From Promethearchaeota archaeon (GTDB lineage Archaea; Asgardarchaeota; Lokiarchaeia; Sigyniarchaeales; SOKP01), in contig JBHLNT010000011.1 of the NCBI GenBank assembly GCA_048941265.1, positions 1-46,551 of the forward strand: a stretch of 46,551 nucleotides of DNA, in the 5' to 3' direction. A model generated the notes under the pieces. It worked only from the letters and a program-made list of their open reading frames with translations, did not search any database and had not been told where the DNA came from. Each line of letters begins with the position of its first letter. The first letter of the stretch is position 1. The translations under genes were made by a program, and so were the position numbers. This document shows positions 10,913 to 35,649 of the stretch, piece by piece.

Positions 10913-12388
10913 ATGAATTTAAATAGGATAGACGAAAACATCTATGAGATAAAACCTAAGGCATTAATGGTAAGAGTTCACGGTGAGATTAAAAAGTTTC
11001 AGATGCGTGTTCCTGCTCATATTTATGCGAATGAATATATTTTAGGGAGGATTCAACAAGATAGAACTTTGGAGCAAATTAGTAATGTTGCTTGTTTACC
11101 TGGAATTGAAAAGCATGCAATTGCTCTTTCAGATGCTCATCAAGGCTATGGTTTTTGCATTGGTGGTGTAGCTGGAACCGATGCCAACTCTGGAATGATA
11201 TCTCCCGGAGGAGTGGGTTATGATATCAACTGTGGAGTTAGGCTTCTTCGCACTAATTTGTTTTTAAAAGAGATACAACAAATACTCCCAGATTTATTAA
11301 ATTCTATCTTTAGAAATATCCCTTCTGGATTAGGATCCAAAGGTAAATTAAATATAAATTATTCTGATTTAGATAATGTTTTAAATAATGGTTTAAATTG
11401 GGCGTTAGAAAAAGGTTATGCCATCGAAGAGGACTTAACCCATTGCGAAGAAAATGGTTGTTTGAAAAATGCAGATGCAAGTTTAGTATCCGAAAAAGCA
11501 AAACAGAGAGCGATCAAACAGCTAGGTTCTTTAGGGAGTGGAAATCATTTTCTTGAAATTCAGAAGATCGATGAGATTTTTAATAAAGATATTGCAAATA
11601 AATTAGGATTTTACGATACAAATCAAATAACAGTCATGGTACATACTGGTAGCAGAGCTTTAGGACATCAAGTATGTACGGATTCATTACGAAATATTGA
11701 ACGAGCTATGAAGAAATATAATATCGAAGTACCTGATAGAGAATTGGCATGTGTACCAGCTGATACACCAGAAGCACAAAATTATTTAAATCAAATGGCT
11801 TGTGCTGCTAATTTTGGATTTAATAATCGACAATTAATAACTCATTGGATTAGAGAATCTTTTCAAAAATTCTTCAATAAAAAAGATTTTGATGAATTGG
11901 ATTTACATTTAATTTATGGTGTTTGCCACAATATATTAAAAATTGAGGAACATGTGGTCGATGGCAAAAAAATGAAATTAAATGTTCATAGAAAGGGTGC
12001 TACTAGAGCGTTCCCACCTGGCCATTCAGAGATTCCCCGGGACTATAAAGATATAGGACAGCCAGCCTTAATTCCGGGAACAATGGGTTCTGCTTCTTAT
12101 ATATGCGTTGGAAAACCGAAAGCTATGGATTTATCATTTGGTTCAACTGCTCATGGATCTGGAAGATTAATGTCTCGTTCTAAGGCTAAAAAGAGATATT
12201 GGGGAGAACAAATCAAACAAGATTTAAGTCAAAAAGGGATCCTTATAAAAGCTGCTTCAATGCAAGTAATTGCCGAAGAAGCTCCAGGAGCGTATAAAGA
12301 TATTGATCAAGTAGTAAATGTTAGTCATGACCTTGGAATTGTAGAAAAGGTTGTTAGACTAGTGCCTGTAGGTGTTGTTAAAGGATAA
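10913..12388 (+). CDS. rtcB: tRNA-splicing ligase RtcB
   Basis: DAHQGYG, GYDINCG, GSGNHFLE, HTGSR, HRKGAT, STAHGSGR, EEAPGAYK. Confidence 0.97.
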   Translation: MNLNRIDENIYEIKPKALMVRVHGEIKKFQMRVPAHIYANEYILGRIQQDRTLEQISNVACLPGIEKHAIALSDAHQGYGFCIGGVAGTDANSGMISPGGVGYDINCGVRLLRTNLFLKEIQQILPDLLNSIFRNIPSGLGSKGKLNINYSDLDNVLNNGLNWALEKGYAIEEDLTHCEENGCLKNADASLVSEKAKQRAIKQLGSLGSGNHFLEIQKIDEIFNKDIANKLGFYDTNQITVMVHTGSRALGHQVCTDSLRNIERAMKKYNIEVPDRELACVPADTPEAQNYLNQMACAANFGFNNRQLITHWIRESFQKFFNKKDFDELDLHLIYGVCHNILKIEEHVVDGKKMKLNVHRKGATRAFPPGHSEIPRDYKDIGQPALIPGTMGSASYICVGKPKAMDLSFGSTAHGSGRLMSRSKAKKRYWGEQIKQDLSQKGILIKAASMQVIAEEAPGAYKDIDQVVNVSHDLGIVEKVVRLVPVGVVKG

Positions 12389-26001: not shown

Positions 26002-26103
26002 AGCCTCTGGGGGGATTTGAACCCCCGACCGAATCATCTAATCGAATGCTTTACTCGATCAATTGATTACGAATCAATCGCTCTACCACTAAGCCACAGA
26101 GGC
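26002..26103 (-). tRNA. tRNA-Thr(CGT) with ~30-31 nt intron at the anticodon stem/variable loop junction (~26031-26061)
   Basis: GCCTCTG/CAGAGGC acceptor, U discriminator, ATTGA-TTCGTAA-TCAAT, GGGGG-TTCAAAT-CCCCC; insert has ATCA/TGAT helix and an ATCGA/TCGAT hairpin. Confidence 0.9.
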
Positions 26104-26155: not shown

Positions 26156-27172
26156 ATGAATAATAATCCTCAGATTGGGAATCTTGGAGAATTTAGGCTA
26201 ATAAAATTAATCGAAGATTTGGTTAAAAAAAAAACTGGAAAAAAATTGTTAAGAGATGATGCCTTTTTTTATTCTCTTAAGGATGAAGAGTTAGATAAGG
26301 ATTTAATCCTAAATTCTGATATGCTTGTATCGTCCACTGACGTCCCTCCTCAAATGAATTCTTATCAAACTGGGCGTAAATCTGTTATTATGAATATAAG
26401 TGATTTAATCGTAAAGGGCGTTATTCCAAAAGGTATTATAATATCTTTAGGGTTACCAAAGGAGCTTAAGAAAGATGATTTTAGTAATTTAATACATGGA
26501 ATTATCGATTGTTGTATGAATTTTAATCTTGATTATATTGGAGGTGATATAAATGAAACAAAGGAAATTATTATTAATCCAACTATCTTTGGCTTTAAGG
26601 GTCCCTCAGCTATAATTTTCAGAAAGGGGATGAAAACAGGTGATATATTAATTGCCAATAATAGATTTGGTTTAACTGGAGTTGGTTTTGATCTTCTTCT
26701 AAATAAAAAATCAGATTTGAAGGGACTAATTAATTATGAAAGATCTGTCATGAGTGTATTAGAACCTAATATCCCCGGAACTGAGGCATTTATTTTATCT
26801 GAACATAAATTTGCTACATCGAGTATTGATTCATCCGATGGTTTAGCAAAATCATTAATAGATTTAATGTTATCTAATCCAAATTATGGCTTTGAGATTG
26901 ATTTTAATGAAAATTTAATAGATCCCGAAGCTCTACTTTATTCTCAAGATTATAATGTTCCATTAGAGGAATTAGTGTTTAATGGGGGCGAGGAATTTAT
27001 TCATTTGTTTACAATTAAGCCAAAAAGCTTTGATGCTGTTCAAAAAAAAGTTAAGGCTAAAGGGGGGCAAATGTTTAAAATTGGAAGAGTTATATCAGAA
27101 GAAAAGATTTATTTTTTAAAGGAAAATAAGAAATTAGAGTTAAAAAGTCGTGGATTTGAACATTTTAAGTGA
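26156..27172 (+). CDS. thiL: Thiamine-monophosphate kinase
   Basis: GEFRLI, DDA, NISDL, IGGD, IDSSDGL, GGEEF, GFEHF. Confidence 0.92.
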   Translation: MNNNPQIGNLGEFRLIKLIEDLVKKKTGKKLLRDDAFFYSLKDEELDKDLILNSDMLVSSTDVPPQMNSYQTGRKSVIMNISDLIVKGVIPKGIIISLGLPKELKKDDFSNLIHGIIDCCMNFNLDYIGGDINETKEIIINPTIFGFKGPSAIIFRKGMKTGDILIANNRFGLTGVGFDLLLNKKSDLKGLINYERSVMSVLEPNIPGTEAFILSEHKFATSSIDSSDGLAKSLIDLMLSNPNYGFEIDFNENLIDPEALLYSQDYNVPLEELVFNGGEEFIHLFTIKPKSFDAVQKKVKAKGGQMFKIGRVISEEKIYFLKENKKLELKSRGFEHFK

Positions 27173-27316: not shown

Positions 27317-27422
27317 GGGCCATTAGCGCAGGCAGGTAGCGCAGCAGGCTTTTAACCTGAAGGTCGTGGGTTCGATACAAACTAGGAAATTCTCCTATTT
27401 TGCGAGAATCCCACATGGCCCG
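27317..27422 (+). tRNA. tRNA-Lys(TTT) with 32-nt T-loop BHB intron (27377-27408)
   Basis: GGGCCAT/ATGGCCC acceptor, CAGG-CTTTTAA-CCTG; TTCG/CGAG central helix with ATA and AAT bulges, inner TAGGA/TCCTA stem. Confidence 0.92.
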
Positions 27423-34396: not shown

Positions 34397-34497
34397 AATT
34401 AAAATTTGTAAAAAATGCTATAACATTTTAGTTAAATTTAATTTTTATTAAACACTTATAAATATCATAAAAAACTAAAATAAATAGGTATAGTGGT

Positions 34498-35110
34498 ATG
34501 TCTTTAAATCCCTTTTTAAGATCTCTTTTATACCTCATTGGTGGCGATGTAGCAATTGAAGTCGGAATAGAACTTTTAAATTCTGAAAATGAAGATATTA
34601 CTGATGAGGATATAACTGAAAATATTAAAGAACGCATTGAAAAGAAAGGAATAGATTTCGAGCCCGATGATAGTGATATATTAAAACTAAATACTGTTCG
34701 AAAAACACTCTATAAATTATATAGTGAAAAACTAGCTCAATTTAGACGAATTCGTGATAAATCCACGGGAAAGTTTACATATATAATGTAAGCTCCGGCA
34801 ATGGTTCATCTACTACTGGTGGCACGAATTTGATTTCATCGAAAGTATTTTATTGGAAAAAAAGAAGCTGGTTCAAAGGAAGTTGAGAGATAGATTGCAA
34901 TATGAGGAAAATAACTATTTCTTCATATGTAAGGCCTGTGGAATATCAAGTACAAAATTTAGATTCGATGAGGCATTTGAATTAAATTTTAGATGCCCTG
35001 AATGTGGAGGTCCCTTAGAGGCTCAGGATAATCAAAAAATTATTGATTTTTTAAAGACAAAGATTGTTCTTAATCAAAATATAACAATTAGTAAAGAGTT
35101 TGAGGAGTAA
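34498..35110 (+). CDS. tfe: Transcription factor E alpha, interrupted by a short insertion/intron
   Basis: 5' part: wHTH ITDEDI...LNTVRKTLYKL...RIRDKSTG. 3' part, in the +1 frame: WFIYYW...RLQYEENNYFFICKAC...FDEAFELNFRCPECG. Confidence 0.9.
34771..34801 (+). other. Putative BHB-like intron in tfe mRNA (28 or 31 nt)
   Basis: Inner stem GTTTACAT/ATGTAAGC, central helix CGGG/TCCG, bulges AAA and GCAA, outer CCA/TGG; contains an in-frame TAA; removal restores the frame. Confidence 0.75.
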
Positions 35111-35115
35111 TAATT

Positions 35116-35649
35116 TCATTTTTTCTTTTTAATAAACGCAATATCTCCCATTGAAGTAGTTGAGGATTTTTTCATGTATTTTTCAGTATTAACTTTAATT
35201 TCATCGGTGGCTTTTAGGATTTGAATATTATAGACTTCTTCAATCTTTTTTGCTAATTTTAAATTTGGTTCTACCTTCCCCGATTCAATTCTTCTAATTA
35301 AGGAGGGCTTTTCATTTAATTTTTGAGCAAATTGTTCTTGGGTAAGGTTTTTTTGCATTCTTGCATTTCGAATTCTCTTAGAATAATCAGAAACAATTTC
35401 TATCGATGGTTCAAGAGGAATAATTGACTTATTAGATGATTTACTTATTGTATTTTTTTGTTTATTAATGGAGATTCTTTTTATACTGGATATTTCAGTT
35501 TTAGGTATTATCTTTTTTCCATATTGGGCGCAACTTTGACAAACTGTTATTTTTGCTCCTTCGATTAAGACTTTTTGACCTTTACCCCAAATTTTGCCTC
35601 CACAAATGGGACAGTCATTATCTATTCTAATCTTTTTTTTATTATACAT
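35116..35649 (-). CDS. mbf1: Archaeal multiprotein bridging factor 1
   Basis: CPICG..IEGAKITVCQSC Zn ribbon plus HTH LTQEQFAQKLNEKPSLIRRIESG. Confidence 0.93.
   Translation of the reverse strand: MYNKKKIRIDNDCPICGGKIWGKGQKVLIEGAKITVCQSCAQYGKKIIPKTEISSIKRISINKQKNTISKSSNKSIIPLEPSIEIVSDYSKRIRNARMQKNLTQEQFAQKLNEKPSLIRRIESGKVEPNLKLAKKIEEVYNIQILKATDEIKVNTEKYMKKSSTTSMGDIAFIKKKK

What the first reader, a model, noticed from the sequence alone, without database searches (positions are those of the whole stretch)
34761..34810. Candidate BHB-type intron inside the protein-coding TFE-alpha gene
Seen: tfe is split between two frames exactly in the conserved motif RIRDKSTG|WFIYYW. The intervening 31 nt (AAGTTTACATATATAATGTAAGCTCCGGCAA) contain a stop codon. 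They fold into an 8-bp inner hairpin (34773-80 with 34786-93), a 3-nt AAA bulge, a 4-bp helix CGGG/TCCG formed with the 5' exon, a GCAA bulge and an exon-exon CCA/TGG stem. Removing 31 nt (34771-34801) gives TGWFIYYW; cutting after the second bulge nt removes 28 nt (34772-34799) and gives TGKWFIYYW. Both are in frame. Size and geometry resemble the five tRNA introns in this window. Known: EndA/RtcB-spliced mRNA introns occur in crenarchaeal cbf5, but archaeal mRNA introns are rare. Inference: this Asgard-like archaeon splices the mRNA of a basal transcription factor with its tRNA splicing machinery, which could couple transcription to splicing capacity. I do not know of a tfe intron report and cannot confirm novelty.
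Basis: partly seen in the sequence, partly recalled or inferred. Interest (0 to 1): 0.92.

Follow-up and report, generated by a model that had tools for sequence, protein, structure and literature searches.

The report
tRNA-type intron in Asgard tfe gene
The only gene for the basal transcription factor TFE-alpha in this Asgard (Lokiarchaeia-type) archaeon is interrupted by a 31-base hairpin that looks like a tRNA-style intron, and other protein genes of the same family carry similar interruptions, so these archaea probably splice some messenger RNAs with their tRNA-splicing enzymes.

Summary

The insertion is in independent DNA contigs. It is the only tfe copy. It recurs at the same site in 4 of 127 family genomes (31 nt in two genomes of the own genus, 30 nt in both genomes of another). 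The 8-bp hairpin differs in sequence but still pairs. Both exons are under purifying selection. Two EndA paralogs and RtcB are present.

The same lineage has textbook BHB introns in other protein genes. One, in a PurM-like gene, occurs in about 27 genomes with strong covariation.

Best reading: an EndA/RtcB-spliced mRNA intron (confidence about 0.8).

Unsettled: there is no RNA evidence, and the exact junction is open. The canonical cut removes 28 nt (TGKWF) in this genome but breaks the frame in the 30-nt alleles. Exact excision (TGWF) needs a slipped, near-isoenergetic register.

The idea of coupling transcription to splicing capacity is untested. I found no prior report in 8 literature searches.

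The parts
34498..34770 (+). tfe exon 1 (91 codons, ends ...RIRDKSTG)
   Evidence: ORF and translation. PF02002 matches profile 39-67. 96% identical to the uninterrupted ortholog of G001.
34771..34801 (+). 31-nt intervening sequence (candidate BHB intron). By the repeated A it is equivalently 34770-34800. The alternative canonical excision is 34772-34799 (28 nt).
   Evidence: Absent from 123 of 127 family genomes that have tfe. Present at the same site in G007, G017 and G052. Covered without gaps by DNA contigs of two runs.
34802..35110 (+). tfe exon 2 (WFIYYW..., zinc ribbon CxxC...CxxC, stop 35108-35110)
   Evidence: Translation. PF02002 matches profile 69-105. dN/dS is 0.078 between the two intron-bearing genomes of the genus.
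34763..34765 (+). outer helix h, 5' strand (CCA), pairs with 34802-34804
   Evidence: Paired in 4 of 4 alleles, one with C-G changed to U-G.
34766..34769 (+). central helix H, 5' strand (CGGG, exon), pairs with 34794-34797
   Evidence: Paired in 4 of 4 alleles. The exon motif TC[CT]ACGGGA is in 4 of 4 intron alleles but only 3 of 86 intronless ones.
34770..34772 (+). 5' bulge AAA (register 1). In the slipped register the bulge is 34769-34771 (GAA).
   Evidence: Invariant in 4 of 4 alleles. Registers compared.
34773..34793 (+). inner hairpin h': 8-bp stem (34773-80 with 34786-93) and 5-nt loop (34781-85)
   Evidence: 97% of cells paired. 3 pairs show changes on both sides among the 4 alleles.
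34794..34797 (+). central helix H, 3' strand (TCCG, intron)
34798..34801 (+). 3' bulge GCAA (4 nt here; GAA or GAG, 3 nt, in the 30-nt alleles)
   Evidence: Alignment A1.
34802..34804 (+). outer helix h, 3' strand (TGG, the Trp codon)
34748..34756 (+). 5' arm (GAATTCGTG) of a 9-bp exon-exon helix with 34823-34831
   Evidence: Appears in the folds. 9 of 9 positions pair, with 8-9 Watson-Crick pairs, in 4 of 4 intron alleles. Intronless alleles reach at most 7 Watson-Crick pairs (0 of 85 reach 8).
34823..34831 (+). 3' arm (CACGAATTT) of the exon-exon helix
11075..12385 (+). RtcB RNA ligase gene (the ligase expected to join the exons)
   Evidence: PF01139, 569 bits, the only copy found in the genome.

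Best explanation
The 31 nt at 34771-34801 are an archaeal bulge-helix-bulge (BHB) intron in the pre-mRNA of tfe.

Proposed mechanism:
- The 5' exon end (CCA CGGG), the intron and the first exon-2 codon (UGG) fold into outer helix, 4-bp central helix, two bulges and an 8-bp inner hairpin.
- The heterotetrameric (alpha-beta)2 splicing endonuclease EndA cuts once in each bulge.
- RtcB joins the exons.
- The mRNA then encodes a normal 193-residue TFE-alpha (or 194 residues with one extra Lys).

Shown: the interruption, its conservation at one site in four species, its conserved and covarying fold, selection on both exons, and the presence of the enzymes.

Inferred: cleavage by EndA, ligation by RtcB, and the exact junction.
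For: (1) The DNA is real. X1 record 1 (966 nt) and X2 record 14 (343 nt) cover the site with 0 differences and 0 gaps.

(2) It is the sole tfe copy. PF02002 finds only this locus over its cut-off. tblastn with the intact G001 TFE finds no second copy at E below 0.009.

(3) Of 127 family genomes with tfe (135 searched), 4 are interrupted, all between GGA and TGG: G000 and G007 with 31 nt, G017 and G052 with 30 nt and an in-frame TGA. A metagenome contig repeats the G017 allele.

(4) 98% of pair cells are standard pairs, against 21-48% in slid controls. 3 pairs carry compensatory double changes.

(5) The exon bases needed for pairing (TC[CT]ACGGGA) are in 4 of 4 intron alleles and 3 of 86 intronless alleles.

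(6) dN/dS for G000 against G007 is 0.25 for exon 1 and 0.078 for exon 2. For G017 against G052, exon 1 gives 0.094.

(7) There are two EndA paralogs (107 and 69 bits) and RtcB. Passages of PMC5829648 state that Asgard EndA is (alpha-beta)2 with the L1 loop that gives broad specificity.

(8) The same lineage has clean BHB introns in other protein genes, in which the cut after the 2nd bulge base removes exactly the inserted length and restores the ortholog's protein:
- G000 C208:3058-3086, 29 nt, in a PurM-like gene;
- three in G001, of 29, 32 and 29 nt.

The PurM-like intron appears to interrupt about 27 of 118 matching genomes in 6 genera, judged by open-frame length. 26 of these were sequenced here. 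They show 97% pairing, 6 pairs with double changes, and 0 of 500 shuffles as good.
Against: No RNA evidence exists: no RNA holder of the locus was listed.

The motif is not canonical in this genome, because the 3' bulge has 4 nt.

In the two 30-nt alleles the best canonical motif (H 4/4, 3-nt bulges) predicts a 28-nt excision that is out of frame. The in-frame exact excision needs a central helix with only 3 of 4 pairs and a 2-bp outer helix.

The two registers differ by only 0.4-0.6 kcal/mol when the surrounding sequence is free to fold. Each holds only 0-26% of the ensemble.

Covariation rests on 4 sequences from 2 lineages. 8 of 500 shuffles reach the observed score.

The single-sequence fold z-score is only -2.37.
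Confidence: 0.8

Rival explanations
1. tfe is a pseudogene in these genomes, inactivated by a small insertion, and TFE function is dispensable or supplied otherwise.
For: The reading frame is broken and contains a stop. The genome is 91% complete, so a second copy could be unassembled.
Against: The same insertion persists in four species of two genera, with both exons otherwise intact. dN/dS is 0.08-0.25. The insertion keeps a fold through compensatory changes. No second tfe was found. A decaying gene would collect further lesions and would not fix pairing-competent synonymous codons.
Confidence: 0.04
2. The ribosome, not an RNA-processing enzyme, gets past the insert, by translational bypassing (as in phage T4 gene 60), by +1 frameshifting, or by stop read-through.
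For: A hairpin with a stop codon sits just after a GGA codon. This is loosely reminiscent of gene 60 (recalled, not from a call).
Against: The three bases before the resuming UGG are CAA, GAA or GAG in the four alleles. None matches a take-off codon GGA or AAG. Two alleles are in frame with TGA and two are out of frame with TAA, so no single recoding rule serves all four. In-frame reading would add 10 residues to a turn whose length is invariant in all relatives examined.
Confidence: 0.04
3. The RNA segment is removed, but by a nuclease and ligase pair other than EndA/RtcB, or by EndA at sites that no BHB rule predicts.
For: The canonical rule fails to give one consistent in-frame product across the four alleles. 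The top6B insertion of this genome shows no clean BHB either.
Against: All elements of an hBHBh' motif are present and conserved. Four other protein-gene introns of the lineage obey the canonical rule exactly. Broad-specificity EndA is reported for Asgard (passages of PMC5829648).
Confidence: 0.07
4. The gene is expressed as two separate polypeptides (winged-helix fragment and zinc-ribbon fragment) that work together.
For: A TTG at 34853 opens an 85-residue ORF covering the zinc ribbon.
Against: The break lies inside the conserved beta-hairpin RIRDKSTG|WFIYYW. The 17 codons 34802-34852 upstream of that TTG are conserved as protein. This rival gives no reason for the conserved hairpin or for the exon pairing bases.
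Confidence: 0.03
5. The insertion is an assembly or binning artefact.
For: The window comes from a 361-contig metagenome-assembled genome.
Against: Gap-free Logan contigs in two runs. Four separately assembled species genomes and one metagenome contig carry it.
Confidence: 0.01

Closest known systems
cbf5 pre-mRNA intron of Crenarchaeota (Aeropyrum, Sulfolobales, Desulfurococcales)
   Same: A short BHB or relaxed-BHB intron inside a protein-coding gene of the information-processing machinery. It is cut by a heteromeric EndA with predicted sites between the 2nd and 3rd bulge residues. It has a patchy distribution with gains and losses among close relatives (PMC2738675, abstract and passages).
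   Different: A different gene (tfe) and a different phylum (Asgard/Promethearchaeota). Here it is one of at least three protein genes interrupted at conserved sites in one family (tfe, PurM-like, top6B). Splicing of cbf5 was shown by cDNA, whereas this case is inferred. The tfe motif has a 4-nt 3' bulge and an unresolved register.
Archaeal tRNA introns at non-canonical positions, abundant in some Asgard families
   Same: Same size class (about 30 nt), same motif and same enzymes. The window's tRNA-Thr carries such an insertion. A 2026 preprint describes heavily interrupted Asgard tRNA genes with repeated gains (10.64898/2026.10.13.758758, abstract and passages).
   Different: The host is an mRNA, so excision must also preserve the reading frame. 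[quoted passage not shown] That preprint's main text has no occurrence of 'mRNA'; its supplements were not seen.
Eukaryotic non-spliceosomal mRNA splicing (HAC1/XBP1 cut by IRE1 and joined by a tRNA ligase such as RtcB)
   Same: A short intron is removed from an mRNA for a transcription factor by endonuclease cuts in stem-loops, followed by tRNA-ligase joining. The excision changes the reading frame (recalled knowledge, not from a call).
   Different: The endonuclease and motif differ. That system is stress-regulated and cytoplasmic. No regulation is shown here.

Membership tests
Archaeal BHB (EndA-spliced) intron | [quoted passage not shown] | tested here: inconclusive
   G000 and G007 have H 4 bp, a 5' bulge of 3 nt, h' 8 bp and h 3 bp, but a 3' bulge of 4 nt. 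G017 and G052 have a perfect 3-4-3 motif. So the shape is met, in relaxed form in this genome.
Archaeal BHB (EndA-spliced) intron | Cuts between the 2nd and 3rd bulge residues give a functional ligated product | tested here: inconclusive
   G000: 28 nt removed, in frame, with one extra Lys. G017 and G052: the same rule on the best motif is out of frame; a 3-of-4-pair register gives exact TGWF. The rule holds exactly in four other protein-gene introns of the lineage.
Archaeal BHB (EndA-spliced) intron | Structure conserved by compensatory change | tested here: met
   98% of cells paired and 3 pairs changed on both sides, against 21-48% paired in slid controls. This rests on only 4 sequences from 2 lineages.
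Archaeal BHB (EndA-spliced) intron | Cognate splicing endonuclease and RtcB ligase encoded by the organism | tested here: met
   Two PF01974 genes and one PF01139 gene at window 11075-12385. The L1 loop was not examined here; it is stated for Asgard in PMC5829648.
Archaeal BHB (EndA-spliced) intron | Excision seen in RNA (spliced mRNA, circular intron) or cleavage in vitro | not testable with these tools
   No RNA holder was listed. The four runs laid are contigs, and none shows a joint that removes the intron from this allele.
TFE-alpha / TFIIE-alpha | N-terminal winged helix and C-terminal zinc ribbon, matching the family profiles | tested here: met
   PF02002 hits both halves colinearly. 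The intact G001 ortholog hits 'transcription initiation factor E subunit alpha' (E = 4e-40) and TIGR00373 (E = 5e-34), both below the curated cut-offs. CxxC...CxxC is present in exon 2.
Translational bypassing (T4 gene 60 type) | Matching take-off and landing codons flanking the gap | tested here: not met
   The bases before the resuming UGG are CAA, GAA or GAG, against take-off GGA or AAG.
Group I or group II self-splicing intron | Ribozyme core of hundreds of nucleotides | tested here: not met
   The insert is 30-31 nt. No Rfam intron family hit in the window.

The most novel reading that the evidence does not exclude
This Lokiarchaeia-type family has a class of EndA-spliced mRNA introns in core genes (tfe, top6B, a PurM-like gene and others).

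At tfe, two near-isoenergetic BHB registers compete. One gives normal TFE. The other gives a frameshifted product (30-nt alleles) or a Lys-insertion product (31-nt alleles). Splice-site choice or EndA activity would then set the dose of a basal transcription factor. That would be regulated, alternative, non-spliceosomal mRNA splicing in the closest archaeal relatives of eukaryotes.
Probability: 0.12. Interest if true: 0.9.

Novelty: new member of a known kind. Interest (0 to 1): 0.72.

Why it matters
BHB introns in protein-coding genes have so far been tied essentially to one gene (cbf5) in Crenarchaeota, in the papers I could search.

Here an essential initiation factor of an Asgard archaeon carries one. 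The same family shows conserved interruptions in at least two more genes: top6B in 11 genomes and a PurM-like gene in about 27.

If splicing is confirmed, three things follow:
1. mRNA splicing by the tRNA machinery is a recurrent feature of the archaeal lineage nearest to eukaryotes. This bears on how introns in mRNAs could be tolerated before the spliceosome.
2. Gene callers will wrongly mark essential genes of these genomes as frameshifted or pseudogenes.
3. The tfe case, where the best motif and the reading frame disagree, is a natural test of how broad-specificity EndA picks its cut sites.

Tried and rejected
**RNA evidence.** The look-up of sequencing runs listed no RNA holder. The one run labelled metatranscriptomic (X20) covered only 34498-34721, from a diverged relative. 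Nothing can be said on expression.

**Repeat family.** A covariance model of the tfe motif (R1) found only tfe in the own genome (61 bits; the next hits were 16 bits, E about 2). The intron is not a repeated element.

**Descriptor scan.** A strict BHB descriptor scan of my own missed the clean PurM-like intron, because its inner helix starts with a mismatch. I dropped descriptor scanning in favour of genome comparison.

**Co-transfer of intron and flank.** The 30 nt upstream of the junction are 87-97% identical among intron alleles, against 73-77% between intron-bearing and intronless alleles of the same clade. Most of the difference is the Ser, Thr and Arg codons needed for pairing, and similar codons occur in some intronless alleles. 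I therefore do not claim lateral transfer.

**Thermodynamics.** Unconstrained and constrained folds give different winners depending on context. They do not settle the register.

**Exon-exon helix.** The 9-bp helix (34748-56 with 34823-31) is partly a by-product of the RIRD and HEF codons: 22 of 85 intronless alleles pair at 8-9 of 9 positions. It is only a hint.

**top6B insertion.** For the top6B insertion of G000 I found no in-frame canonical BHB. The best is H 3/4, removing 25 nt. Its relatives could not be fetched.

**Metagenome scan.** One metagenome pattern scan gave a single contig identical to the G017 allele.

**Literature.** Searches found no tfe intron and no Asgard mRNA BHB intron. 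Supplements were closed and not seen. Subscription journals are not covered.

Full report
**What is in the sequence.**

The gene at 34498-35110 (+) is tfe. Its first frame runs from ATG 34498 to a TAA at 34789-34791. Its second frame is open from 34802 (WFIYYWWHEF…, with CxxC…CxxC) to the stop at 35108-35110.

Pfam TFIIE_alpha matches the two halves colinearly: profile 39-67 in the N half and 69-105 in the C half. The intact ortholog of the sister genome G001 hits NCBIfam 'transcription initiation factor E subunit alpha' at E = 4e-40, below that model's curated cut-off.

Between GGA (Gly, 34768-70) and TGG (Trp, 34802-04) lie 31 nt.
- CCA/TGG outer helix;
- CGGG/TCCG central helix;
- AAA bulge;
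- 8-bp hairpin with a 5-nt loop;
- GCAA bulge.

Alone, the fold is only mildly unusual (z = -2.37).

**Organism and machinery.**

Record titles of the closest tfe loci name Promethearchaeota/Promethearchaeia MAGs, that is Lokiarchaeia-type Asgard archaea.

The genome (5.0 Mb, 361 contigs, 91% complete) has:
- two EndA paralogs, which fits the (alpha-beta)2 enzyme with the L1 loop that PMC5829648 reports for Asgard archaea (passages);
- one RtcB, which lies in this same window at 11075-12385.

No second tfe was found.

**The insertion is real DNA.**

Logan contigs of two runs cover 34400-35050 and 34708-35050 with no difference and no gap. Intronless relatives occur in the same runs: there is a joint 34763 to 34802 with seven other letters between. 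A contig from a run of another study covers 34763-34834 without gaps at 9 differences. The first two runs may be the source sample, so they exclude an assembly slip rather than give independent populations.

**Comparison with relatives.**

Of 135 genomes of the family, 127 have tfe. Only 4 have a short open frame at the C half (103-107 residues): G000 and G007 (2 of the 8 genomes of the genus with a match), and G017 and G052 (both genomes of another genus).

In the 30 loci first fetched:
- 18 of the 21 with a recognisable junction read …RIRDKSTGWFIY[YF]WW without interruption;
- the other 9, mostly of other families of the order, also have the two halves contiguous.

The turn therefore has one invariant length.

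The four interrupted alleles have the insert exactly between GGA and TGG:
- 31 nt in G000 and G007, which differ from each other by two loop bases;
- 30 nt in G017 and G052, in frame but with a TGA.

A pattern scan of 185,579 species genomes found no further carriers. The one metagenome scan gave a contig identical to the G017 allele.

On a tree of 89 distinct TFE proteins the carriers need at least 2-3 changes. G000, G001, G003 and G007 form one well-supported clade (96), with two carriers and two non-carriers. The intron has therefore been gained or lost recently and cleanly.

**Evidence that the RNA fold is under selection.**

On the 4-sequence alignment, 98% of pair cells are standard pairs, against 21-48% when the partners are slid. 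Three pairs of the inner hairpin change on both sides. 8 of 500 shuffles reach the covariation score. This is a small sample from two lineages.

The exon bases that must pair (TC[CT]ACGGGA) occur in 4 of 4 intron alleles but only 3 of 86 distinct intronless alleles (one of the 86 was mis-parsed).

A 9-bp exon-exon helix (34748-56 with 34823-31) has 8-9 Watson-Crick pairs in all four carriers and at most 7 in 85 intronless alleles. Much of it follows from the codons themselves.

**Evidence that the gene is in use.**

Between the two carriers of the genus, dN/dS is 0.25 (exon 1) and 0.078 (exon 2; 23 synonymous against 13 non-synonymous differences). Between the two carriers of the other genus, exon 1 gives 0.094, and exon 2 is saturated at synonymous sites with dN = 0.22. 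The exon downstream of the stop is thus kept as protein.

**The same lineage has clean BHB introns in other protein genes.**

I fetched 2.79 Mb of the intronless sister genome G001 and compared it with G000 by tblastn in both directions.

2,945 G001 open frames of at least 100 residues (2,530 with hits) revealed three frame-breaking insertions of about 30 nt in G000:
- tfe, 31 nt;
- C208:3058-3086, 29 nt, in a PurM/AIRS-superfamily gene;
- C98:8511-8541, 31 nt, in top6B.

The reverse search found three such insertions in G001:
- 29 nt in an AMP-binding enzyme;
- 32 nt in a Prismane/CO-dehydrogenase-family gene;
- 29 nt in a 157-residue ORF.

In four of these five non-tfe cases the motif is textbook. 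It has a 4-bp central helix and two 3-nt bulges, with an outer helix of up to 10 bp; the outer helix is weak in the 157-residue ORF. The published cut between the 2nd and 3rd bulge residues (PMC2738675, passage) removes exactly the inserted length. It restores the ortholog's residues: VTRAAL, PDPR, EYME and DEQTGT.

The PurM-like intron appears to interrupt about 27 of 118 matching genomes in six genera, judged by open frames of 303-313 residues. I fetched 26 of these. They show 97% of 592 cells paired, 6 pairs with double changes, and 0 of 500 shuffles as good.

The top6B gene is split at the same residue (47-50) in 11 genomes of three genera. Their sequences could not be fetched, and in G000 I found no clean in-frame BHB.

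These results make EndA-type splicing of mRNAs in this family the expected explanation rather than an exotic one.

**The unsolved point: where exactly is tfe cut?**

- In G000, the canonical rule cuts AA|A and GC|AA. It removes 34772-34799 (28 nt) and gives TGKWF. This is in frame but has a Lys that no relative has.
- In G017 and G052 the same register is a perfect 3-4-3 motif, yet it removes 28 of 30 nt and breaks the frame.

Register 2 is slipped by one base:
- the 5' bulge is G69 A70|A71;
- the inner helix is lengthened by A72:U94;
- the central helix is C66:G97, G67:C96 and G68:C95, plus an A·G opposition;
- the outer helix is C64:G803 and C63:G804.

With canonical cuts, register 2 gives exact excision and TGWF in the 30-nt alleles. 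In G000 it does so only if the 3' cut is set one base before the outer helix, because the bulge has an extra C.

A third possibility is a 5' cut AA|A with a 3' cut two bases before UGG. This would give TGKWF in all four alleles (AAA, AAA, AAA, AAG).

Energies do not decide. The registers differ by 0.4-0.6 kcal/mol once the context is free to fold, and by 1.6-2.2 kcal/mol the other way in a bare 54-nt context. The minimum-energy fold of 34755-34812 is register-2-like.

I favour exact excision, because the turn length is invariant and it is the only in-frame canonical solution in two of the four alleles. I hold this at little better than even odds for G000.

**Rivals.**
- Pseudogene: contradicted by selection on both exons, the conserved fold and the single copy.
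- Ribosomal bypass, frameshift or read-through: no matching take-off and landing codons, and no single rule fits both the in-frame and the out-of-frame alleles.
- Two separate polypeptides: the break is inside a conserved beta-hairpin, and the 17 codons before the first possible restart are conserved.
- Artefact: excluded and by four separate assemblies.

**Known and new.**

The closest known case is the cbf5 pre-mRNA intron of Crenarchaeota (PMC2738675). A preprint of October 2026 describes heavily interrupted tRNA genes in Asgard archaea but does not mention mRNAs in its main text.

Eight full-text searches gave no tfe intron and no Asgard protein-gene BHB intron. Supplements and subscription journals were not seen. 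I therefore file it as a new member of a known kind.

Noticed in passing
own genome contig C208:3058-3086 (+), outside the window: A 29-nt textbook hBHBh' intron in a 470-residue PurM/AIRS-superfamily gene. The canonical cut restores ...CGFHVTRAAL as in G001. The same site appears interrupted in about 27 of 118 family genomes in six genera, judged by open frames of 303-313 residues. 26 of these were fetched and show strong covariation (97% paired, 6 double changes, 0 of 500 shuffles).
   Followed up: yes
own genome contig C98:8511-8541 (-), outside the window: A 31-nt frame-breaking insertion near residue 48 of DNA topoisomerase VI subunit B. The gene is split at the same residue in 11 family genomes of three genera. 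No clean in-frame BHB was found in this genome; the best is H 3/4, removing 25 nt.
   Followed up: partly
G001 contig C6 near 877201, 396816 and 188850 (-); loci L234, L210, L200: Three canonical BHB insertions (29, 32 and 29 nt) in the sister genome. They lie in an AMP-binding enzyme, a Prismane/CO-dehydrogenase-family gene and a 157-residue ORF. All three are absent from the G000 orthologs.
   Followed up: partly
window 11075-12385 (+): The genome's only RtcB RNA ligase gene lies in the same window, 22 kb upstream of tfe. No link beyond co-location was examined.
   Followed up: no
window 26002-26103 (-) and 27324-27382 (+): tRNA-Thr(CGU) has an insertion that Rfam places in the variable region (about 31 nt) but ARAGORN places in the anticodon loop (21 nt). 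A second, sub-threshold tRNA match covers only model positions 8-63, as if broken by further introns. Standard finders under-call tRNAs here.
   Followed up: partly
window 26280-26345 (+): Sub-threshold match to a C/D-box snoRNA family (27.8 bits against a gathering score of 43), between the two tRNA loci. It may be an archaeal C/D sRNA.
   Followed up: no
window 34748-34756 with 34823-34831 (+): A 9-bp exon-exon complementarity (GAATTCGTG with CACGAATTT) brackets the intron. It is strongest in the four intron-bearing alleles, but it is partly imposed by the RIRD and HEF codons.
   Followed up: partly
runs X1 and X2 laid on window 34400-35200: Intronless tfe alleles of close relatives occur in the same sediment runs as the intron-bearing allele. 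Recombination with such alleles would be a ready route to clean intron loss.
   Followed up: no
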